A DNA stretch of 64,000 nucleotides, taken from the NCBI GenBank assembly GCA_035528115.1, contig DATKZF010000001.1:160312-224311 (forward strand). Reading direction: 5' to 3'. The notes beneath the pieces were generated by a model. It had not been told where the DNA came from and searched no databases. It saw nothing but the letters and a program-made list of their open reading frames with translations. Position numbers and translations under genes: made by a program. Positions 9,131 to 56,198 of this stretch are shown here, piece by piece (within the stretch, counting starts at the first letter, position 1; every line of letters begins with the position of its first letter). Origin of the DNA: Candidatus Bipolaricaulota bacterium. GTDB lineage: Bacteria; Patescibacteriota; Patescibacteriia; UBA11705; DATKZF01.

Positions 9131-9835
9131 TTACTCTGATGCTTGCGACAATCGCGGCATCTTTTTATTTCCGGCGACAATGACAGCGAATTCTCCTTTA
9201 ACTTCGCTGTCGGAAAAATTTTCTTTCAATGATTCGATCTTGCCGCGATAAATCGTTTCATGCATCTTGGTCAGCTCGCGACCGATAACCATCTGCCTCT
9301 CCGGCATCAATTCCGCCAAATCACCCAATGTTCTCATAATTCGATGAACCGATTCGTAAAAAATGACCGGGATCTCCGAATTCATTATTTTTTCATAAAT
9401 TTTTCTTCTGCCTTTTTTGTGAGGTAAAAACCCCAAAAAAATAAAATTATCCATGGGCAGTCCGGCCACGCTGATCAAAGTCGAAAAAGCCGCCGGACCT
9501 GGCAAAGGAATCGTTGTTATTCCCGCAGCAGCAGCGGCTTCGGCCAATTTGCCTCCGGGATCCGAAACATTGGGCGTGCCCGCGTCGCTGACATAAACAA
9601 CGTTTTGTCCGCCTTTGATTTTTTCTATCAACTCCTTGATTTTATGCGGCGAAGAATGCTGATGATAACTGATTGTCGGCTTATCGATGCCGTAATGCGT
9701 CAAAAGCTTTCGAGTGTGCCTGGTGTCTTCGCAAACAATCAAATTTGCTTCTTTCAAAGTCTCAACAACGCGATAAGTTATATCTTTCAAATTCCCTATC
9801 GGCGTGGCCGCGATATATAAATTTCCTGATTCCAT
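9131..9835 (-). CDS. rsmI: 16S rRNA (cytidine1402-2'-O)-methyltransferase
   Basis: NLYIAATPIGNLKDIT...VCEDTRHTRKLL, the typical RsmI N-terminus. Confidence 0.88.
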   Translation of the reverse strand: MESGNLYIAATPIGNLKDITYRVVETLKEANLIVCEDTRHTRKLLTHYGIDKPTISYHQHSSPHKIKELIEKIKGGQNVVYVSDAGTPNVSDPGGKLAEAAAAAGITTIPLPGPAAFSTLISVAGLPMDNFIFLGFLPHKKGRRKIYEKIMNSEIPVIFYESVHRIMRTLGDLAELMPERQMVIGRELTKMHETIYRGKIESLKENFSDSEVKGEFAVIVAGNKKMPRLSQASE

Positions 9836-9864
9836 ATGTTTTCATTATAGCAAAAACTTAACTT

Positions 9865-9892
9865 TTTTCAATTGCCGGCTTCATGATATAAT
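9865..9892 (+). promoter_or_regulatory. Sigma-70-like promoter (TTTTCA-N16-TATAAT) placed to give a leaderless methyltransferase mRNA
   Basis: TATAAT at 9887-9892 is only 6 nt upstream of the ATG at 9899. A weak -35 is at 9865-9870. Confidence 0.4.
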
Positions 9893-9898
9893 AGGCTC

Positions 9899-10747
9899 AT
9901 GAAGTCCAAACGAAACAAAACCATCACCGCGTCAAATGAAGAAATCGAAAACTTCTCCTTTTTGAGCTTGCCCCGAGAAATAGATTCGATTTCAGCTCTT
10001 GAGAATCGAATTTTCCTGACCGATTCTCTGAAATCAATTAAATTGCTTCCGAACAATTCAATTGATTTGATTTTAACCGACCCGCCATATAACAACCGCA
10101 AAAACTTCGGCGACGGCACGGTTAATTTGAGCGAGACCGAATTTGAAAAATGGAATGACTCATGGATCAAAGAATGTTTCAGGATTCTAAAGCCGAACGG
10201 CTCGATTTACGTCTGCATCGACTGGCAAAACTCCGGTCTGATTCAGGACGTTTTAAAAAAATATTTCATTATCAAAAATCGCGTCACTTGGAAAAGGGAA
10301 AAAGGCAGAGGTTCTAAAACAAACTGGAAAAACAACATGGAAGACATCTGGTTCGCGACCAAGTCAAACGATTACACTTTCAACGTCGATCAAGTCAAAA
10401 TAAAAAAAGAAGTCATTGCTCCTTATACAGATTCAGCCGGAAATCCGAAAGACTGGATTGAAGAAGATGGGAAAAAATTCAGAATGACTTGCCCATCGAA
10501 TATTTGGACAGACCTCACCGTGCCTTTTTGGTCCATGCCCGAAAACACCGAGCACCCCACCCAAAAACCGGAAAAACTTATTGAAAGAATCATTTTGGCC
10601 AGTTCCAGTGAAGAAGATTTGATTTTCGATCCGTTCCTTGGCTCGGGAACGACATGCGCGGTCGCCAAAAGATTAAAAAGAAAATATCTCGGTTTTGAAA
10701 TTAATAAAAAATATTATATTCTGGCCTCCAAAAGATTGGACAAATAA
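9899..10747 (+). CDS. DNA methyltransferase (N6-adenine or N4-cytosine, beta class), apparently an orphan
   Basis: DPPY catalytic motif in LILTDPPYNN. C-terminal FDPFLGSGTT AdoMet motif with motif order IV then I (beta class). No restriction endonuclease is adjacent. Confidence 0.85.
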   Translation: MKSKRNKTITASNEEIENFSFLSLPREIDSISALENRIFLTDSLKSIKLLPNNSIDLILTDPPYNNRKNFGDGTVNLSETEFEKWNDSWIKECFRILKPNGSIYVCIDWQNSGLIQDVLKKYFIIKNRVTWKREKGRGSKTNWKNNMEDIWFATKSNDYTFNVDQVKIKKEVIAPYTDSAGNPKDWIEEDGKKFRMTCPSNIWTDLTVPFWSMPENTEHPTQKPEKLIERIILASSSEEDLIFDPFLGSGTTCAVAKRLKRKYLGFEINKKYYILASKRLDK

Positions 10748-10750
10748 ATC

Positions 10751-11098
10751 TCAATCGAACAATTCGTTTCTCAAATCCTTGGCGTCATTGAAAAAATCCT
10801 TACCTTGCTCAATCGCCGAATCCATTTCTTTCAAATGTTCATCGGCTGACGCGGCCGCGTCTTGAGCTTTTTGCAATGATTCACGTCCTTCGCTTATCTC
10901 CACGCTTATTTGCGCCCTGACCGTCTGATAAAATTTATACAAATACAATCCGCCGGCTATAACCGCCGCAACAAAAATCAGCCAACAGCCGGTTTTTATT
11001 TTTGTCAAAATGCCGGTTTTATATTTGACGATTTCCTTTGGTTTGGCCGTCTCATTATTTTCTTTTGTTGAGCTGTTGCTGGAATGCTTCATAATCAA
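10751..11098 (-). CDS. Hypothetical N-terminally anchored membrane protein
   Basis: 115 aa with one TM helix (CWLIFVAAVIAGGLYLY) followed by a charged coiled coil. It overlaps the upstream gene by 4 nt. Confidence 0.5.
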   Translation of the reverse strand: MIMKHSSNSSTKENNETAKPKEIVKYKTGILTKIKTGCWLIFVAAVIAGGLYLYKFYQTVRAQISVEISEGRESLQKAQDAAASADEHLKEMDSAIEQGKDFFNDAKDLRNELFD

Positions 11099-11673
11099 AT
11101 CAATTCCCTGATTTTAAGATCATAAATAATCTGCTCGATCTGCCTTTGATTTCGTTTGGCTTGATCGAATTTGGTTCGTAAAAAACTGGTCAGATTCATT
11201 TCGAGTAAAATCAAAATCACCTCATTAATGGTTTTTTGAATGTCGAAAATTTTGGCATATTTCCCCTGATTGACCAAAAGCACCGCCCAGCGCACCAATT
11301 CCCCGGAAAAATCGGCAAGTCCGCCCAAGTATTCGTCAAACTCAAGCGACACGCCGCTGATCTCCCCCACTTTACCCGTCTTTCTATATTCGAAATACAA
11401 AGCCGCTTCCGCGAATTCTTCATTGGCGGCCTTCCATGAGCCTTCGGCTCTGCTTTTGTGATTTTTGCCGAATTTTTTTTCCAATTCAACCAATGTTTTC
11501 TTGCTCTCATCAAGTTTCGCTTTGGCGTCTTTAATATTGTCTCGATGAAGCGCGAAGATCGCTTTTTTGGCGTTATTTAAAGCCATGCTCGATTGCCCGA
11601 TAATAATCGATCTGTTTTTTTGATAATCAGCGTGTTTTTTTTGAATTTGTTTCCAAAATGTTTTGTTTAGCAT
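11095..11673 (-). CDS. Translin-family protein (nucleic-acid-binding)
   Basis: EYLGGLADFSGELVRWAV and the C-terminal IEQIIYDLKIRE match the translin signatures YVEALSDLTGELMRLAI and VEEVVYDLSIRG. Confidence 0.6.
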   Translation of the reverse strand: MLNKTFWKQIQKKHADYQKNRSIIIGQSSMALNNAKKAIFALHRDNIKDAKAKLDESKKTLVELEKKFGKNHKSRAEGSWKAANEEFAEAALYFEYRKTGKVGEISGVSLEFDEYLGGLADFSGELVRWAVLLVNQGKYAKIFDIQKTINEVILILLEMNLTSFLRTKFDQAKRNQRQIEQIIYDLKIRELI

Positions 11674-11687
11674 AAATTTTCAAATAT

Positions 11688-11716
11688 TTGACTAATTTTA
11701 AATTTCTTCATATAAT
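11688..11716 (+). promoter_or_regulatory. Near-consensus sigma-70 promoter TTGACT-N17-TATAAT
   Basis: TTGACT at 11688-11693, a 17-nt spacer, then TATAAT at 11711-11716. An AGGAGG ribosome binding site follows at 11733, and the ATG is at 11746. Confidence 0.6.
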
Positions 11717-11745
11717 TTTAACTCGACAACCAAGGAGGACGGACA

Positions 11746-12143
11746 TGGACATTCATCCGTGCAAAAATTGCGCTCAGGCCAGCGTCTGCAACATCAGACT
11801 GGCGTTCGAGCGCTTCGGGCAAACGAACCCTGACATGAAAAGCGTCACCTTCAGCTGTCAGCGCTTCGAGTCGCTAAATAGAGCCCCGCCCGACATTTTG
11901 CAGGCGCGGACATCATCCTGCAGACGTTGCGGCGAAGCGAACAACTGCCGGATGAAAAAAAATATGTCTCTTCTCTTCACCCGCTACGACAACAGCATCT
12001 CGCTGATCGCCTTGTTCTGTACGAAGAGACTCTACGATCTGGCAAAGTTCCTCGAAGGATGCCTCTCCTGCCAAAGAACCGGTTGTCCGATCCGAGACGC
12101 GCTCAATTTCAAGCTCGTCTGCTCGTATCACCCCGACCGCTAA
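11746..12143 (+). CDS. Small cysteine-rich hypothetical protein (132 aa, at least 13 Cys)
   Basis: Strong AGGAGG-N7-ATG. CxxC and CxxxC spacings (CKNCAQASVC, CRRCGEANNC, CLSCQRTGC). Local GC about 60%, above the neighbouring genes. Confidence 0.6.
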
Positions 12144-12168
12144 ACCGCTTTCTCAAAGCGGTTTTTAT
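12142..12168. terminator. Bidirectional rho-independent terminator
   Basis: AAACCGCTTTCTCAAAGCGGTTTTT hairpin with flanking A and T runs, between convergent genes. Confidence 0.6.
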
Positions 12169-12170
12169 AA

Positions 12171-13175
12171 TTATTGCAAATACTTTTGCTTATTGGCCAC
12201 GTGCTCTTCAAATGTTTTGCTGTAAATTATTTCGCCGTCTTCGGTATTCAAAAAATAATAATAATCATTAGGCTCGGGATAAACGACGGCCTTGATCGCC
12301 TCAATGCTCGGATTGCAAATAGGACCGGGCGGCAAACCTTTATTTTCATAAGTATTATACGGATGCTGAATTTCCAAATCAGCGAAGCTGGGACGAGTTG
12401 TCCCCTTTTTCGTGATGTAATTGATGGTGGCGTCGGATTGAAGCGGCATGCCTATGTTCAATCTTTTCAAAAAAACATCAGCTACGATTCTCCTATTTTC
12501 ATAGCCATGCATTTCTTTTTCCACGATTGAAGCCAAGGTCAAAACCTCAAAAATAGTTTTCTTTTGTCGTTTTATTTCAGTTCTCAATTCAGGCGTCAAC
12601 TTTTGATCTAAATTTTCCAACATTTTTTCAATAACCCCGGCCGAACCGGCTTGCGGATCAAAAAAATAAGTGTCCGGATATAAATAACCTTCAAGGTCCG
12701 CCTCCATCGGCTTACCATCCCAAAAAGTCCATCTGCTTTCCGCTCTCCAAAAACCGTTTTGAACTTCATCCAGAAATTCCAACCCCGAAACAATATCTTG
12801 CTCGGTTAATTCAGCGGCGATTTGCATTTGATCCCAACCTTCGATTATGGTCACGCGACCGAACTTGTCTCCTTGACCGCTTAAAGCGTCAATCAAATCA
12901 AATGAATTATATTCCGGTTTCAACCAATAGGTGCCGGCCACAAAGTTACTTGAAAGCCCCTTGAATTTTATGTACCACAGCAAGGCCGATTCATCTTTAA
13001 CAATGTCATTGACCCGCAATTTTTCAACAATGTCTTTAGCGCTCATGCCGCTTTCGACTTTGAACGGAATATTTTCGGAAATATTCAAATTTTCTTTCAA
13101 GTTTTCAAATTTCAAAAAACCGAACGCGGCCAATCCCAACAAAAGAATCAAAATAAGAAAAAAAAGTTTTTTCAT
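12171..13175 (-). CDS. mltG: Endolytic murein transglycosylase MltG (YceG family)
   Basis: N-terminal TM helix and YceG-like domain, with the C-terminal motif YNTYENKGLPPGPICNPS. Confidence 0.85.
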   Translation of the reverse strand: MKKLFFLILILLLGLAAFGFLKFENLKENLNISENIPFKVESGMSAKDIVEKLRVNDIVKDESALLWYIKFKGLSSNFVAGTYWLKPEYNSFDLIDALSGQGDKFGRVTIIEGWDQMQIAAELTEQDIVSGLEFLDEVQNGFWRAESRWTFWDGKPMEADLEGYLYPDTYFFDPQAGSAGVIEKMLENLDQKLTPELRTEIKRQKKTIFEVLTLASIVEKEMHGYENRRIVADVFLKRLNIGMPLQSDATINYITKKGTTRPSFADLEIQHPYNTYENKGLPPGPICNPSIEAIKAVVYPEPNDYYYFLNTEDGEIIYSKTFEEHVANKQKYLQ

Positions 13176-14722: not shown

Positions 14723-15550
14723 TCAATTGAGCAATAAATACACGATCAATGCCGCGGCCAATAAAAACCGGTAATACGCGAACGGCCTCATGCCGCGCTT
14801 ATTCAGTATAGCCAATAAAAATTTAATTGCAACAAACCCTATTACCGCCGAAGAAATTATGCCGATGATAAATAAAGGAGCTTCGGACGTTAACGTTTCA
14901 AAATTCAATTTCAGCGCGCCCAAAACGGCAGCTCCGAGCATCACCGGAATTCCCAAAACAAAACTGAACCGAGCGGCCTCGCCTCTCTGTAATTTAAAAC
15001 CCATTCCTGTTATAATGGTAATGCCTGAGCGCGAAACTCCCGGAATCAAGGCAATCGCTTGAGCAAAACCGATGGCCAACGCGCTCTTCCAATTCAAACT
15101 GATGATTTGTTTATTTCCTTTATAAAATTTTTCAACCAGCAAAAACAAAACTCCTCCCAAAATCAACGCGACGATGACCACAACGGAATTTCTGACAACC
15201 TTTTCGAAAAAGTCTCCGAAAGCGGCGCCCAAGAGCGCGGCGGGGATCGAGCCTAGAACAAGCAACCAAGCCAATCTCTGATCATCATTTAAATGATTTA
15301 ATTTCTTAAAACTTGAAAACCACGCAACGCATAAAACTCCAATGGGTTTGGCAAAGTAAACGATTATGGCCAGCAAAGTACCCAAATGAAGAGCGACATC
15401 AAAGCTCAAGCTGTCATTGATTTGAAAATTTAAAATATCCCTAAAAATAATCAAGTGCCCCGAACTGGAAACGGGCAAAAACTCGGTAATGCCTTGAACG
15501 ATTCCCAAAAAAAGAGAAGATAAATAAATCATATTAAATTTATGCTGCAA
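14723..15550 (-). CDS. uppP: Undecaprenyl-diphosphatase. The start may be the internal Met at 15532.
   Basis: GITEFLPVSSSGHL and the conserved C-terminal PGVSRSG motif. Confidence 0.88.
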   Translation of the reverse strand: MQHKFNMIYLSSLFLGIVQGITEFLPVSSSGHLIIFRDILNFQINDSLSFDVALHLGTLLAIIVYFAKPIGVLCVAWFSSFKKLNHLNDDQRLAWLLVLGSIPAALLGAAFGDFFEKVVRNSVVVIVALILGGVLFLLVEKFYKGNKQIISLNWKSALAIGFAQAIALIPGVSRSGITIITGMGFKLQRGEAARFSFVLGIPVMLGAAVLGALKLNFETLTSEAPLFIIGIISSAVIGFVAIKFLLAILNKRGMRPFAYYRFLLAAALIVYLLLN

Positions 15551-27267: not shown

Positions 27268-28284
27268 TTATTTTCTTAGGTTTTTAAAATTTTCCGCTAT
27301 GCTGATGCCCACCGGACAAGCCTGAAAACATCTCATGCAACCGACGCAACCGGGAAATTTGTATTCGTCCGTCATTCTGACGAATTTATGATAATACCAA
27401 TAATATAATTTTTCCGCGGCGTGTCTCATGTCGTTTTCGCCATTGGTTATTTTCGTGAATTCCGGATAAAAGCAAGACGACCATTTTCTTTTTCTGGAAA
27501 TAACATCTCCGTCCGCGACATCTTCATGCTCGAAACAAAAACAAAGCGGGCAGACGAGAGAACATTTGCCGCAAGCCAGACAAATTTTGCCCAGCTCTTG
27601 CCAGAGCTTATCCTCGGGCTTGGACTTGAAAATCAATTCCCTGTTTTTTAAAACAAATTCCTTATTCGGCCCTTCTTCGGGGATCGGCCCGGCGTATTCG
27701 ATATTCATATAATCACTGATACCGTTTTCCTCCAGTATTTGCTGGCCTTTTTCCGAGCCGCTGAAAATTTTCAAATTTTTGTTTTTTTGCTCTTCAATGA
27801 AAATATCGAAATTCAAATGTTCAAGCTTATCCTCCCTGAATTTTTCATGAAAAATTTTATATTTCCGATAATCCTGCGGCAGACCGGCGCTGTAGCCGAT
27901 AAGTAAAGTCTTGGCTCGTCGCTTTTGATAATAAACGTCTTCGGAAAAAATCGCTTCCAGATAAGTCAGGGCCTGCAAATCCAAAATATTTATTCCAAAA
28001 ATCACTCTGGATTTTTTTTCAAATATCTCGCAAAGCCCTTTTTCATCTTGTTTTAATATTTCTTCCGTTGAGGGCAACAGCAAATGCTTGAAGCTTTGCT
28101 TGGGCAATTTCCATGACCAATCCATTTCCTTGATGTCCGAGATCTCAACCACCGCGATATCATCATCGATTTTTCGGGGCGCGAAAAAAACATTTTTTTT
28201 CAGCAAACAAAGCAATAATTGATTGAGAGCGCTTTTTGTCATATTAAAATCATTATAACACAAAAACCGGCGGATAAAAAACAA
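27268..28284 (-). CDS. Hydrogenase beta subunit (4Fe-4S ferredoxin-like)
   Basis: CLACGKCSLVCPLC and CVGCMRCFQACPVG ferredoxin motifs. Confidence 0.8.
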   Translation of the reverse strand: MFFIRRFLCYNDFNMTKSALNQLLLCLLKKNVFFAPRKIDDDIAVVEISDIKEMDWSWKLPKQSFKHLLLPSTEEILKQDEKGLCEIFEKKSRVIFGINILDLQALTYLEAIFSEDVYYQKRRAKTLLIGYSAGLPQDYRKYKIFHEKFREDKLEHLNFDIFIEEQKNKNLKIFSGSEKGQQILEENGISDYMNIEYAGPIPEEGPNKEFVLKNRELIFKSKPEDKLWQELGKICLACGKCSLVCPLCFCFEHEDVADGDVISRKRKWSSCFYPEFTKITNGENDMRHAAEKLYYWYYHKFVRMTDEYKFPGCVGCMRCFQACPVGISIAENFKNLRK

Positions 28285-48169: not shown

Positions 48170-48342
48170 GTTACGAATTACATTCCTCTATTAAACTTTT
48201 AGGTTATCTGTTACGTATTACAATATTCTCAAGATTAAAGCTATAAGTAAATATAATTTGCAACAACAGATTGGAAGCCAAATGGAATCTTGTAATTCGT
48301 AACAACCGCTTGAAAGCTATCCAGCAGATTGTAATTCGTAAC
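48170..48342. repeat. MITE-like element family A (copy with a duplicated right end)
   Basis: GTTACGAATTACA at 48170-48182. TGTAATTCGTAAC at 48291-48303 and again at 48330-48342. Confidence 0.7.
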
Positions 48343-48422
48343 AATATTATTTCAAAACCGTCCCCGTCTCCATATACAGGTGGAAAAATTCAACTAAATT
48401 TAGCTAAAAAATAAAGCAATCC

Positions 48423-48451
48423 TTGACTTTTTATTGATTTTGTGATATAAT
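48423..48451 (+). promoter_or_regulatory. Sigma-70 promoter TTGACT-N17-TGaTATAAT (extended -10)
   Basis: TTGACT at 48423-48428 and TATAAT at 48446-48451, preceded by TG. AAGGAGG follows, and the ATG is at 48504. Confidence 0.6.
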
Positions 48452-48503
48452 GTTATTAGTTTTCTAAACAACGACAGGCCTGAATGGCCTAAGGAGGCAC
48501 GAG

Positions 48504-49268
48504 ATGAAGCAGTGGATGTGCGCCATGTTGGCGCTGGTTCTGGTCGGCTGTTGGCAGGCGCCGCAGCCGGAAAAAACGATGTACAACCCAAACCCCATGA
48601 GCCGGCTCGAAGCGGAATGCCCGCAAGGCACGTTCCTACTGGAGCTGAATTCCAGCACGTTCATGGCTCAATTCTGCTCGGACAGTTACTTTGTCCAGCA
48701 GGGTCCCTTCAAGGAGTGGGAGCATGGACGACTCTCACGAGAAGGGCAGGCGCTCGACGACAAAGCTGTCGGACAGCACACCTTCATGAACTACGACCGT
48801 GATGGCAACGTCGCCGAGATCCGCAAGAGCGACTACAACTCCAAGGGAGAGCAGGACGGCTTCGAGACCCGCTACTACGCGGACGGCCAGGTGGAGGTCA
48901 TTTGGCCGTTCACCCGAGGGATGGAAAACGGCATCACGGAGTGGTATTACCCCAGTGGAAGTTTGGGCGGATACTGCAACTACCTCGTCGGGCTCCAAGA
49001 TGGCGAGTGTGCCAGCTTTTTCCCCGACGGTCGTCTCTGGGAAGCTCTGGAGTACGACCACGGCAGATTGGTAGGAGCGTACCTGCCCGACTCGCCAGCC
49101 ACGTTCGTAGATGCTGGCGGGAATGGGTACGTCGAGTACCTCAACAATGAGGGGCTCGTGACCACCAGCGGCCGGTACGAAAACGGCCGTAAGGAGGGCT
49201 GCTGGCAGAACAGGCACAGGGAATCCGTCCTCTATATGGACGGGAAAATCCTCGGCTTTAACTGCTAG
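48504..49268 (+). CDS. Lipoprotein with MORN-like (YwqK-type) repeats
   Basis: MLALVLVGCW lipobox. Repeated YYxDGxxxxxxxxxxGxxxGxxxxYYPSG modules. GC about 62-67%, the highest in the window. Confidence 0.65.
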   Translation: MKQWMCAMLALVLVGCWQAPQPEKTMYNPNPMSRLEAECPQGTFLLELNSSTFMAQFCSDSYFVQQGPFKEWEHGRLSREGQALDDKAVGQHTFMNYDRDGNVAEIRKSDYNSKGEQDGFETRYYADGQVEVIWPFTRGMENGITEWYYPSGSLGGYCNYLVGLQDGECASFFPDGRLWEALEYDHGRLVGAYLPDSPATFVDAGGNGYVEYLNNEGLVTTSGRYENGRKEGCWQNRHRESVLYMDGKILGFNC

Positions 49269-49290
49269 TTTGTTTCTCCTTTTCAACCAG

Positions 49291-49328
49291 ACCGCCAAGG
49301 GCACCTCCTTTGGCGGTCGATTTTTTTT
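49291..49328 (+). terminator. Rho-independent terminator
   Basis: ACCGCCAAGGGCACCTCCTTTGGCGGTC hairpin followed by a T8 run. Confidence 0.7.
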
Positions 49329-56116: not shown

Positions 56117-56164
56117 ACAATGCTTCATGCTCCATGATACATGATACGTGACACATGAATTATA

Positions 56165-56198
56165 CCACAAAACATAAAAGGCCGGGAAATTCCGGCCC
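56165..56198 (-). terminator. Rho-independent terminator closing the mraZ-rsmH-ftsL unit
   Basis: Perfect GGCCGGGAAATTCCGGCC hairpin, followed on the minus strand by a U-rich tract. Confidence 0.6.

What the first reader, a model, noticed from the sequence alone, without database searches (positions are those of the whole stretch)
9865..11673. Orphan, apparently leaderless DNA methyltransferase next to a translin-family protein
The beta-class DPPY methyltransferase at 9899-10747 has a TATAAT hexamer ending 6 nt before its ATG, so a leaderless mRNA is predicted. No restriction enzyme is nearby. The convergent neighbours are a small anchored protein and a translin-like protein (11095-11673) with GEL and YDLxIRx signatures. 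Translin homologs are uncommon in bacteria. An orphan methyltransferase beside an unusual nucleic-acid-binding protein could be an epigenetic-regulatory or anti-mobile-element pairing.
Basis: partly seen in the sequence, partly recalled or inferred. Interest (0 to 1): 0.5.

Follow-up and report, generated by a model that had tools for sequence, protein, structure and literature searches.

The report
Solitary DNA methylase beside bacterial TRAX-like nuclease
A lone DNA-methylating enzyme and a bacterial relative of the eukaryotic/archaeal TRAX (C3PO) nuclease really do sit side by side here, but they are neighbours by shared ancestry in a housekeeping block of an ultra-small (Patescibacteria-type) bacterium, not a functional pair.

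Summary
9899-10747(+) encodes a beta-class DPPY DNA methyltransferase. TGATATAAT ends exactly 6 nt before its ATG. A small single-pass membrane protein and a translin-family protein (11095-11673, -) converge on it.

The translin-family protein is TRAX-like. It keeps the full C3PO catalytic tetrad (E86, E89, D121, E125), and its model superposes on human TRAX and N. equitans C3PO (TM 0.85-0.90).

The methyltransferase looks solitary. No restriction-enzyme family was found in the 64 kb. Its composition is native and its position is syntenic in relatives. It is better conserved than its neighbours. Relatives about 55% identical are also solitary, in dnaA-gyrB regions.

Leaderless geometry is a habit of this genome: 6 of 13 TGnTATAAT promoters sit 6-9 nt from a long-ORF ATG, and almost no gene has a Shine-Dalgarno sequence. 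TRAX-like genes occur in at least 395 species genomes, mostly Patescibacteria. Only 11 of 69 informative loci have the methyltransferase nearby. There it is always convergent and 0.6-2.3 kb away, and four syntenic loci lack it.

The pairing is therefore inherited gene order, not an epigenetic or defence module. Both genes are new members of known kinds. Interest is low to moderate.

The parts
9844..9852 (-). Extended -10 promoter element TGCTATAAT of the divergent rsmI gene. The ATG at 9835 lies 8 nt downstream.
9865..9871 (.). Overlapping -35-like hexamers of the two back-to-back promoters: TTTTCA on + (9865-9870) and TTGAAA on - (9871-9866). Each lies 16 nt from its -10 element.
9884..9892 (+). 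Extended -10 promoter element TGATATAAT of the methyltransferase gene. Six nt separate it from the ATG, so the predicted transcription start is the A of the ATG (leaderless mRNA).
   Evidence: The same geometry occurs in orthologues L005, L065, L045 and L014. L081 has 9 nt.
9899..10747 (+). Solitary beta-class (motif IV before motif I) DNA methyltransferase, 282 aa, probably N6-adenine. DPPY at nt 10079-10090, HPTQKP at 10553-10570, FLGSGTT at 10634-10654.
   Evidence: PF01555 at E 3e-50. Best solved relative is M.BceJIV, 8URK, at E 8e-38. Motif positions. The N-terminus M-x-S-x-R-N-K-T is conserved in 12 of 12 orthologues, and 10 of 11 orthologues have no upstream in-frame start.
10751..11092 (-). 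Small single-pass membrane protein, 113 aa from the ATG at 11092 (the ORF opens at TTG 11098). It has an MKHS... N-terminus, one transmembrane helix and a charged, probably helical C-terminal tail. Its start lies 2 nt after the TRAX-like stop codon, so the two are probably co-transcribed.
   Evidence: Proteins of the same architecture sit immediately downstream of the TRAX-like gene in about 16 related loci. No Pfam family.
11095..11673 (-). TRAX-like (C3PO-type) translin-superfamily protein, 192 aa, with the catalytic tetrad E86/E89 (EEFAEA, nt 11404-11421) and D121/E125 (DFSGE, nt 11299-11313).
   Evidence: PF01997 at E 2.8e-20. The profile's best PDB hits are NeC3PO, fly and human TRAX, and AfTRAX. 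AlphaFold2 pLDDT 95.6. Foldseek TM 0.85-0.90 to TRAX and NeC3PO. Catalytic residues mapped via and PMC5100593, and invariant in 27 homologues.
11688..12164 (+). Adjacent insert that is not part of the pair. It comprises a sigma-70-type promoter (TTGACT-17-TATAAT, 11688-11716), an AGGAGG Shine-Dalgarno sequence, a Cys-rich 132-aa ORF (11745-12143; GC 0.54, GC3 0.71) and a 10-bp-stem terminator (12142-12164). It separates mltG from the TRAX-like gene.
   Evidence: No Rfam match.

Best explanation
These are two independent housekeeping functions that are neighbours by descent.

(A) The methyltransferase. 9899-10747 encodes a solitary beta-class DNA methyltransferase, most likely N6-adenine (inferred from the DPPY motif). 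It has its own extended -10 promoter, placed so that transcription starts at the A of the ATG. The mRNA would be leaderless and translated without a Shine-Dalgarno sequence, as are many first-in-operon genes of this genome. The enzyme would methylate a short, still unknown motif across the chromosome. By analogy with CcrM, Dam and M.BceJIV, it would serve replication, repair or transcription rather than restriction (inference).

(B) The nuclease. 11673-11095 and 11092-10751 form a two-gene unit: a TRAX-like protein and a small membrane-anchored protein. By homology to archaeal C3PO, the TRAX-like protein should assemble into a hollow homo-oligomer, an octamer in N. equitans and A. fulgidus. 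It should cut single-stranded RNA or DNA by a two-metal mechanism using E86, E89, D121 and E125. Its role would be RNA processing or turnover, or nucleic-acid salvage (inference).

The two units converge, with their stop codons 3 nt apart. That close spacing is specific to this genome.
For: Methyltransferase identity and class.

Solitary status:
- No restriction-endonuclease family was found in the 64 kb.
- Neighbours in relatives are RsmI, MetRS, Ham1, an M50 peptidase and the TRAX-like gene.
- Relatives about 55% identical lie between ptsH and lolA in the dnaA-dnaN-recF...gyrB region of alphaproteobacterial MAGs, with no restriction enzyme.

Native and vertically inherited:
- GC 0.398 and GC3 0.481, like its neighbours.
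- Same syntenic slot in 11 genome loci plus L081.
- Pairwise methyltransferase and TRAX-like identities co-vary: Spearman 0.42, with 8 of 5000 Mantel permutations reaching that value.
- The methyltransferase is the more conserved of the two in 63 of 66 pairs.

Leaderless expression:
- Exact geometry.
- TGNTATAAT occurs 13 times against 1.8 expected.
- Six of those 13 sites have a long-ORF ATG 6-9 nt downstream.
- Only about 7 of 72 ORFs have a Shine-Dalgarno-like motif.
- Orthologues share the geometry.

TRAX-like nuclease.

Independence of the two units:
- Convergent orientation in all 11 loci.
- Methyltransferase present in 11 of 69 informative loci.
- Four syntenic loci lack it.
- The TRAX-like gene sits in varied housekeeping contexts elsewhere.
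- No PADLOC hit for the TRAX-like protein.
Against: - Only 64 kb of the genome is visible, so a restriction enzyme elsewhere cannot be excluded.
- Several window ORFs have no family assignment.
- The methylated base and the target motif are unknown. The base-contacting residues of the closest solved enzyme, M.BceJIV, are not conserved.
- No transcription-start, methylome or enzymatic data exist for this organism.
- Within the syntenic clade the two genes have stayed within about 2 kb of each other over substantial divergence (TRAX-like identity down to about 40%). On its own, that could hint at a selected linkage.
Confidence: 0.7

Rival explanations
1. Split restriction-modification system. 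The methyltransferase protects the chromosome against a cognate restriction endonuclease encoded elsewhere in the genome, outside this 64-kb window.
For: The protein scores best against PADLOC 'Type II methyltransferase' models at 229 bits. Only part of the genome can be inspected. Restriction enzymes often escape Pfam, and several window ORFs have no family.
Against: - The gene occupies a syntenic position among housekeeping genes across genomes whose TRAX-like proteins are only 40-50% identical.
- It is more conserved than its neighbours.
- Its composition is native.
- No palindrome is strongly avoided in the window (low power).
- Relatives in other phyla are also solitary.
Confidence: 0.12
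2. Functional pairing. The methyltransferase marks self DNA and the TRAX-like nuclease, possibly membrane-tethered through the small protein, degrades unmarked or foreign nucleic acid. Alternatively, the two cooperate in epigenetic regulation.
For: The two genes lie within 0.6-2.3 kb of each other in 11 related genomes plus the window and L081. The TRAX-like protein has an intact nuclease site.
Against: - The genes are always convergent and never co-transcribed.
- Variable genes lie between them (small membrane protein, Ham1, others).
- 58 of 69 informative TRAX-like loci have no such methyltransferase.
- Four loci with identical flanking synteny lack it.
- The methyltransferase family occurs without a translin neighbour in other phyla.
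- The TRAX-like protein has no hit in PADLOC.
- Characterised C3PO enzymes act on short single-stranded RNA or DNA inside a closed barrel, and no methylation sensitivity is reported (PMC5100593).
Confidence: 0.06
3. The methyltransferase is a recently acquired gene derived from a mobile element or phage.
For: PF01555 methyltransferases are frequent on mobile elements (general knowledge). The gene is one of the few +-strand genes in a window transcribed almost entirely on the - strand. It is present in some syntenic loci and absent from others.
Against: - GC and GC3 match the neighbours.
- No integrase or repeats flank it.
- The slot and orientation are the same across divergent genomes, and its distances correlate with those of the TRAX-like gene.
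- The promoter is of the genome's own extended -10, leaderless type. The atypical inserts use Shine-Dalgarno sequences instead.
Confidence: 0.03
4. This rival concerns expression only and is independent of the other three. The TATAAT-to-ATG spacing is fortuitous or is not the operative start. The gene is then translated from a leadered transcript or from another start codon.
For: Seven of 12 orthologues have the -10-like element farther upstream, with 20-46 nt leaders, or have weaker elements. No transcription-start data exist.
Against: - The start codon is fixed by a conserved N-terminal peptide and by the absence of upstream in-frame starts.
- There is no Shine-Dalgarno sequence.
- The 6-9 nt spacing recurs at six strong promoters in this window.
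- The distance histogram shows enrichment at 6-8 nt.
Confidence: 0.2

Closest known systems
M.BceJIV of Burkholderia cenocepacia (PDB 8URK; orphan beta-class N6-adenine methyltransferase, target GTWWAC)
   Same: It is the best solved-structure match, at E 8e-38 over residues 23-280. It shares the size (about 283 aa), the beta-class motif order, the DPPY and HPTQKP motifs, and orphan status with lineage-wide conservation (PMC11380664).
   Different: The residues that read GTWWAC are replaced in the window protein (P, I, E, K, T, F, S; M, E), with indels in the target-recognition domain. These are R180, L182, F183, W188, R203, H205 and Q207, plus H147 and D148 of the flipped-cytosine pocket. The target motif is therefore probably different. 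The genomic context also differs: the trp operon in Burkholderia, against a stand-alone leaderless gene here.
CcrM (Caulobacter, GANTC) and E. coli YhdJ: conserved solitary beta-class adenine methyltransferases
   Same: Same Pfam family and class. All are solitary, chromosomally fixed and conserved across a lineage.
   Different: Scores are far below the NCBIfam equivalog cutoffs: CcrM 120.6 against 830, and YhdJ/PRK11524 178.6 against 292. The window protein lacks the C-terminal domain of CcrM. No cell-cycle evidence exists for it.
Archaeal homo-octameric C3PO (Nanoarchaeum equitans NEQ131/NeC3PO, PDB 5JR9/5JRC; Archaeoglobus fulgidus AfTrax, 3ZC0/3ZC1)
   Same: These are the best profile hits: NEQ131 at E 1.1e-19 and AfTrax at E 1.5e-15. 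They share the length (about 190 aa) and the all-helical fold, with TM 0.85-0.88. All four metal-binding residues correspond: Ne E82, E85, D117 and E121 to window E86, E89, D121 and E125. The substrate and interface residues K34, R124 and R163 correspond to K36, R128 and R166. As in the archaea, it appears to be a single translin-superfamily gene rather than a translin plus TRAX pair.
   Different: The host is bacterial (Patescibacteria-type). The published survey cited in PMC5100593 lists Chloroflexi as the only bacterial phylum. Sequence identity to the archaeal proteins is only about 18%. The gene is followed by a small membrane protein. Oligomeric state and activity are untested.
Eukaryotic C3PO (translin:TRAX hetero-octamer; human 3PJA, fly 3AXJ/3RIU)
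   Same: Same fold. The top three Foldseek hits are human TRAX chains, with TM 0.88-0.90. The profile scores TRAX (65-69 bits) above translin (39-52 bits). The catalytic tetrad is the same.
   Different: No translin partner gene was seen, and no RNAi machinery is expected in a bacterium. The protein is shorter, lacking the TRAX insertions.

Membership tests
Beta-class amino DNA methyltransferase (Pfam PF01555 N6_N4_Mtase) | Score above the Pfam gathering threshold over the full domain | tested here: met
   171.6 bits against a cutoff of 26.7, covering profile positions 1-219 of 221
Beta-class amino DNA methyltransferase (Pfam PF01555 N6_N4_Mtase) | Catalytic motif IV (D/N/S)PP(Y/F) placed N-terminal to the SAM-binding motif I FxGxG, which is the beta permutation | tested here: met
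   DPPY at residues 61-64 and FLGSGTT at residues 246-252
Beta-class amino DNA methyltransferase (Pfam PF01555 N6_N4_Mtase) | Methyl transfer to N6 of adenine rather than N4 of cytosine, at a defined DNA motif | not testable with these tools
   DPPY, rather than SPPY/F, favours N6-adenine by established motif knowledge. The closest solved enzymes are adenine-specific. No methylome data are available.
Orphan (solitary) methyltransferase | No restriction endonuclease gene adjacent or nearby | tested here: met
   No restriction-endonuclease Pfam family among about 70 ORFs of the window. None in L081, L001 or L083-L086. Caveat: some ORFs are unassigned.
Orphan (solitary) methyltransferase | Conserved across related species in a fixed chromosomal context | tested here: met
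   Eleven genome loci plus L081 share the slot. Identity is 63-82%, higher than for the flanking genes.
Orphan (solitary) methyltransferase | No cognate endonuclease anywhere in the genome | not testable with these tools
   Only 64 kb of the genome is available.
M.BceJIV-type GTWWAC specificity | Conservation of the base-contacting residues R180, L182, F183, W188, R203, H205 and Q207 | tested here: not met
   None of the seven is conserved in the phmmer alignment, read against the contacts listed in PMC11380664.
CcrM / YhdJ equivalogs (NCBIfam NF050803, NF008572) | Score above the curated equivalog cutoff | tested here: not met
   120.6 against 830 for CcrM, and 178.6 against 292 for YhdJ
Translin superfamily, TRAX-like / C3PO nuclease | Pfam PF01997 score above the gathering threshold | tested here: met
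   73.6 bits against a cutoff of 25.9. All 69 homologues carry PF01997.
Translin superfamily, TRAX-like / C3PO nuclease | Seven-helix all-alpha translin/TRAX fold | tested here: met
   AlphaFold2 pLDDT 95.6 with seven helices. Foldseek TM 0.85-0.90 and probability 1.00 to TRAX, NeC3PO, translin and AfC3PO.
Translin superfamily, TRAX-like / C3PO nuclease | Catalytic acidic tetrad: Glu, Glu, Asp, Glu (human TRAX Glu123, Glu126, Asp193, Glu197; NeC3PO E82, E85, D117, E121) | tested here: met
   Window E86, E89, D121 and E125 align to the N. equitans residues. They are invariant in 27 homologues.
Translin superfamily, TRAX-like / C3PO nuclease | Closed octameric barrel assembly and Mg/Mn-dependent cleavage of single-stranded RNA or DNA | not testable with these tools
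   No multimer modelling or biochemistry was available. The interface residues R166 and K168 are conserved.
Leaderless mRNA | A -10 element positioned so that transcription starts at the start codon, and no Shine-Dalgarno sequence | tested here: met
   TGATATAAT, then 6 nt, then ATG. Only AGG lies 3 nt from the ATG.
Leaderless mRNA | Experimentally mapped 5' end at the start codon | not testable with these tools
   No transcriptome data are available.
Restriction-modification-like or defence gene pair (methyltransferase plus nuclease) | Co-oriented or co-transcribed genes with conserved co-occurrence | tested here: not met
   Convergent in all 11 loci. Methyltransferase present in 11 of 69 informative loci. 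Four syntenic loci lack it. No PADLOC match for the TRAX-like protein.

The most novel reading that the evidence does not exclude
The TRAX-like gene and the small membrane-protein gene may encode a membrane-tethered, C3PO-type barrel nuclease. It would be specific to genome-reduced Patescibacteria and would process imported or endogenous single-stranded nucleic acid for nucleotide salvage or RNA maturation. Its recurrent neighbours elsewhere fit this loosely: a PilB-type pilus ATPase, Ham1/ITPase, NUDIX and a metallophosphoesterase. The adjacent, unusually well-conserved solitary methyltransferase may be a lineage-wide, CcrM-like epigenetic regulator of these bacteria. Neither role has been described for this phylum.
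Probability: 0.15. Interest if true: 0.55.

Novelty: new member of a known kind. Interest (0 to 1): 0.28.

Why it matters
This result mainly clears up a lead. The suggestive adjacency of a lone methyltransferase and a rare nucleic-acid-binding protein is inherited gene order, not a new epigenetic or defence module.

Two modest points remain useful:

1. A TRAX-type nuclease with an intact active site is widespread in Patescibacteria. It was found in at least 395 species genomes and in 443 clusters (50% identity) at E <= 1e-30. The survey cited in the C3PO literature names only Chloroflexi among bacteria. In organisms with minimal RNase repertoires this nuclease may be an important and entirely uncharacterised RNA or DNA processing enzyme.

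2. The methyltransferase is a candidate lineage-conserved orphan epigenetic enzyme in a phylum whose regulation is almost unknown.

The window also gives a clear example of extended -10, leaderless, Shine-Dalgarno-free gene expression as the default in such a genome. That matters for gene calling and start-codon assignment in these MAGs.

Tried and rejected
- Exact-sequence contig look-up of the TRAX-like protein returned nothing, so the rest of the source genome could not be inspected.
- Predicting the target motif from the closest structure, M.BceJIV, failed because the base-contact residues are not conserved.
- Palindrome avoidance in the window showed no near-absent site. The strongest deviations were TTAA, TATA, GGCC and GAATTC, at z of -3 to -5 with hundreds of sites remaining, so the test was uninformative.
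- I asked whether the GC-rich 11.7-12.2 kb insert is a structured RNA gene such as RNase P RNA or tmRNA. There was no Rfam hit at the gathering threshold or at E <= 1, and ARAGORN found no tmRNA. The fold z-score was only -3.0. A homologue 58% identical has conserved cysteines and no gaps, which favours a real small protein.
- I checked whether an 825-aa ORF beside the methyltransferase in the closest relative, L001, could be a restriction enzyme. It is an M50 peptidase.
- A repeat and inverted-repeat scan of 9700-12250 found nothing beyond short chance-level matches. No terminator was found between the convergent stop codons.
- Literature searches for translin in Patescibacteria, for leaderless translation in the candidate phyla radiation, and for orphan methyltransferases in Patescibacteria found no directly relevant paper.
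Full report
**Anatomy**

The region lies in a window where almost every gene is on the minus strand. From high to low coordinates, the minus strand carries:
- uppP, then a mannose-1-phosphate guanylyltransferase, then mltG/yceG (12171-13175);
- the translin-family gene (11673-11095);
- a small ORF whose ATG (11092) follows the translin stop codon after 2 nt (10751-11092).

The methyltransferase gene (9899-10747) is on the plus strand and converges on this unit, with only 3 nt between the two stop codons. Upstream of it, rsmI (9835-9131) and metG run divergently on the minus strand.

The 63-bp rsmI/methyltransferase intergenic region holds two back-to-back extended -10 promoters. These are TGCTATAAT at 9852-9844 on the minus strand and TGATATAAT at 9884-9892 on the plus strand. 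Their -35-like hexamers overlap at 9865-9871.

**Checking the observation**

All the stated features are present.
- The 282-aa product matches PF01555 (N6_N4_Mtase) at E 3.1e-50. DPPY lies at residues 61-64 and FLGSGTT at residues 246-252, which is the beta-class order.
- TATAAT (9887-9892) ends exactly 6 nt before the ATG.
- The 192-aa protein matches PF01997 (Translin) at E 2.8e-20 and contains GEL (124-126) and YDLKIRE (184-190).
- The intervening 113-aa protein has a single hydrophobic helix.
- The promoter motif is not a chance match. TGNTATAAT occurs 13 times in the window against 1.8 expected, and none of 100 shuffles reached 13.

**The translin-family protein is a TRAX-like nuclease**

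A profile of 27 homologues hits the following PDB sequences:

| PDB protein | E-value |
|---|---|
| N. equitans C3PO (NEQ131) | 1.1e-19 |
| Fly TRAX | 6e-18 |
| Human TRAX | 2e-17 |
| A. fulgidus AfTrax | 1.5e-15 |
| Translins | 6e-13 to 9e-8 (weaker) |

An AlphaFold2 model has mean pLDDT 95.6 and seven helices. Its three best Foldseek matches are the TRAX chains of human C3PO (TM 0.88-0.90), followed by NeC3PO (TM 0.85).

The NeC3PO paper defines a two-metal site formed by Glu82, Glu85, Asp117 and Glu121. It also names the substrate and interface residues Lys34, Arg124, Arg163 and Arg164 (PMC5100593). In the HMMER alignment, after allowing for the 34-residue offset of the crystallised chain, these map to window E86, E89, D121 and E125, and to K36, R128, R166 and K168. 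All are invariant across the 27 homologues.

The protein is therefore predicted to be catalytically competent. As in archaea, it should work as a homo-oligomer, because no second translin-family gene is seen. Assembly state and activity are inferred, not shown.

**How common it is and what surrounds it**

Two peptide patterns found 395 species-level genomes encoding a relative. The informative record titles are almost all Patescibacteria: Falkowbacteria, Uhrbacteria, Magasanikbacteria, Buchananbacteria and Parcubacteria. Many other titles are placeholder names. A full profile search found 2,916 clusters at 50% identity with E <= 1e-3, of which 443 had E <= 1e-30.

I clustered the neighbours de novo in 80 loci. 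The upstream neighbour on the same strand is variable:

| Upstream neighbour | Loci |
|---|---|
| MltG | 24 |
| PilB-type T2SSE ATPase | 17 |
| P-type ATPase | 14 |

Downstream neighbours are also variable:

| Downstream neighbour | Loci |
|---|---|
| Mur ligase | 18 |
| Metallophosphoesterase | 13 |
| Small membrane protein, cluster 7 | 13 |
| Permease | 10 |
| GT2 glycosyltransferase | 8 |
| Ham1/ITPase | 8 |
| NUDIX hydrolase | 7 |

None of these is a defence gene, and the TRAX-like protein matches no PADLOC model.

The only tight partner is the small MKHS...-TM-charged-tail protein. It sits immediately downstream, with gaps of -4 to +10 nt in most cases, in about 16 loci of the window's own clade.

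**The methyltransferase**

Its best solved relative is M.BceJIV (8URK) at E 8e-38. M.BceJIV is an orphan beta-class N6-adenine enzyme that recognises GTWWAC (PMC11380664). The residues that read GTWWAC are not conserved here, so the target motif cannot be inferred. NCBIfam places the protein below the YhdJ and CcrM equivalog cutoffs.

Evidence for solitary, native status:
- No restriction-endonuclease family was found in any window ORF.
- GC 0.398 and GC3 0.481 are typical of the locus.
- The gene occupies the same slot, between rsmI and the TRAX-like unit and on the opposite strand, in 11 genome loci and in the Falkowbacteria contig L081.
- It is 63-82% identical across genomes whose TRAX-like and MltG proteins are only 40-53% identical.
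- It is the more conserved protein in 63 of 66 pairwise comparisons. Its pairwise identities correlate with those of the TRAX-like gene: Spearman 0.42, with 8 of 5000 Mantel permutations as high.
- Relatives about 55% identical sit between ptsH and lolA in the dnaA-dnaN-recF...gyrB region of alphaproteobacterial MAGs, again without a restriction enzyme.

This pattern is typical of lineage-conserved orphan methyltransferases with housekeeping or regulatory roles. That reading is by analogy to CcrM, Dam and M.BceJIV and is an inference. A cognate endonuclease elsewhere in the genome cannot be excluded.

**Leaderless expression**

The -10 element spans -12 to -7. Six nt between TATAAT and the ATG therefore places the +1 position on the A of the ATG. 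The start codon is secure:
- All 12 orthologues begin M-x-S-x-R-N-K-T.
- Ten of the 11 orthologues have no upstream in-frame start.
- Four orthologues (L005, L065, L045, L014) share TGnTAnAAT + 6 nt + ATG. L081 has 9 nt. Others have 20-46 nt leaders without a Shine-Dalgarno sequence.

This is the norm for the genome, not a peculiarity of the methyltransferase:
- Only about 7 of 72 ORFs have any Shine-Dalgarno-like motif.
- Distances from -10-like hexamers to start codons pile up at 6-8 nt.
- Six of the 13 TGNTATAAT sites are followed after 6-9 nt by the ATG of a 234-747-aa ORF. These ATGs are at 9835 (rsmI), 9899 (the methyltransferase), 23454, 28242, 37671 and 46916.

**Is the pairing functional?**

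The evidence says no.
- The genes are convergent in every case. They are separated by 0.6-2.3 kb containing variable genes: the membrane protein, and Ham1 in five loci.
- The methyltransferase accompanies the TRAX-like gene in only 11 of the 69 loci that have at least 3 kb of downstream sequence.
- Four loci with the same flanking synteny (L004, L006, L007, L012) lack it. In L007, rsmI follows the small protein directly.
- The 3-nt stop-to-stop spacing is unique to this window. The gap is about 195-240 nt in L002 and L081.

The simplest account is that both genes belong to an ancestral housekeeping block: tatD-metG-rsmI | methyltransferase(-Ham1) | small TM-TRAX-mltG-manC-uppP. This block is retained in one Falkowbacteria-like clade.

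**Verdict**

Both proteins are new members of known kinds.

The residual interest lies in two things. One is an uncharacterised, widespread bacterial C3PO-type nuclease with a membrane-anchored partner. The other is a strongly conserved solitary methyltransferase in a poorly understood phylum. Neither is surprising enough to rank high without experimental data.

Noticed in passing
window 11688-12164 (+): A compositionally foreign mini-gene lies between mltG and the TRAX-like gene. It has a near-consensus sigma-70 promoter (TTGACT-17-TATAAT), a strong AGGAGG Shine-Dalgarno sequence, a Cys-rich 132-aa ORF and a perfect 10-bp terminator hairpin. The ORF has GC 0.54 and GC3 0.71, against about 0.42 and 0.47 for its neighbours. 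Only one homologue exists in 5.8 billion proteins (58% identity, cysteines conserved). There is no Pfam or Rfam match. In L081 the same gap is only 92 nt.
   Followed up: partly
window about 47000-49300 (+), GC 0.47-0.49: This is a cluster of plus-strand ORFs: 47008-47409, 47665-48138 and 48504-49268. Two of the three (47008 and 48504) have AAGGAGG-type Shine-Dalgarno sequences; 47665-48138 has none. GC is higher than elsewhere, whereas the rest of the window is Shine-Dalgarno-free. The cluster may be an acquired segment that kept a different translation-initiation style.
   Followed up: no
window 9836-9898: The rsmI and methyltransferase promoters are back to back, and their -35-like hexamers overlap on opposite strands (TTTTCAA, 9865-9871). 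RNA polymerase occupancy of the two promoters may therefore be mutually exclusive.
   Followed up: no
window 15008-15016 (+), 41429-41437 (+), 45629-45637 (+), 56159-56167 (-): These are perfect TGNTATAAT promoter elements with no long ORF starting right after them. One is antisense inside uppP. They are candidate promoters for small RNAs, short ORFs or antisense transcripts.
   Followed up: no
window 28242 and 46916 (- strand starts): The longest-ORF starts of two genes, TTG at 28284 and GTG at 46937, are probably wrong. A TGTTATAAT element lies inside each extension, 9 nt upstream of an ATG (28242 and 46916). This suggests shorter, leaderless versions of both genes.
   Followed up: partly
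proteins P0212, P0223 and about 50 others among the top 150 hits (not in the window): These are two-domain proteins of 345-691 aa. The N-terminal translin-like domain lacks the catalytic residues. The C-terminal TRAX-like domain keeps EExxE...DxxGE. That amounts to a single-chain translin-plus-TRAX arrangement. The named members come from stramenopile algae (Chattonella subsalsa, Coscinodiscus wailesii; MMETSP). Their TRAX-like half scores 106-145 bits against the bacterial profile, against 65-69 bits for canonical animal TRAX.
   Followed up: partly
L003, L013, L014, L042, L045 (and L006, L012 without the methyltransferase); protein P0110: A Ham1/ITPase (non-canonical NTP pyrophosphatase) gene lies directly downstream of, and co-directional with, the methyltransferase in 5 of 11 orthologous loci. 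One database protein, P0110 (491 aa), is annotated with both the Ham1 and N6_N4_Mtase domains. In the window the Ham1 gene is absent from this position.
   Followed up: partly
proteins P0001 and P0070 (100% identical to the window proteins): NCBI labels the source MAG 'Candidatus Bipolaricaulota bacterium'. Gene order and the closest relatives (72-82% identity) are Patescibacteria or Falkowbacteria-like, so the taxonomic label is probably wrong. Many related MAGs carry the placeholder name 'uncultured Gammaproteobacteria bacterium ... binchicken'.
   Followed up: no
L082 (ENA ERZ27237639 k141_359124): The same metG-rsmI-methyltransferase block is joined directly to CTP synthase, YidC and a TonB-dependent receptor instead of the TRAX-like unit. 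TonB-dependent receptors are unexpected in Patescibacteria, so this contig may be a chimeric assembly.
   Followed up: no
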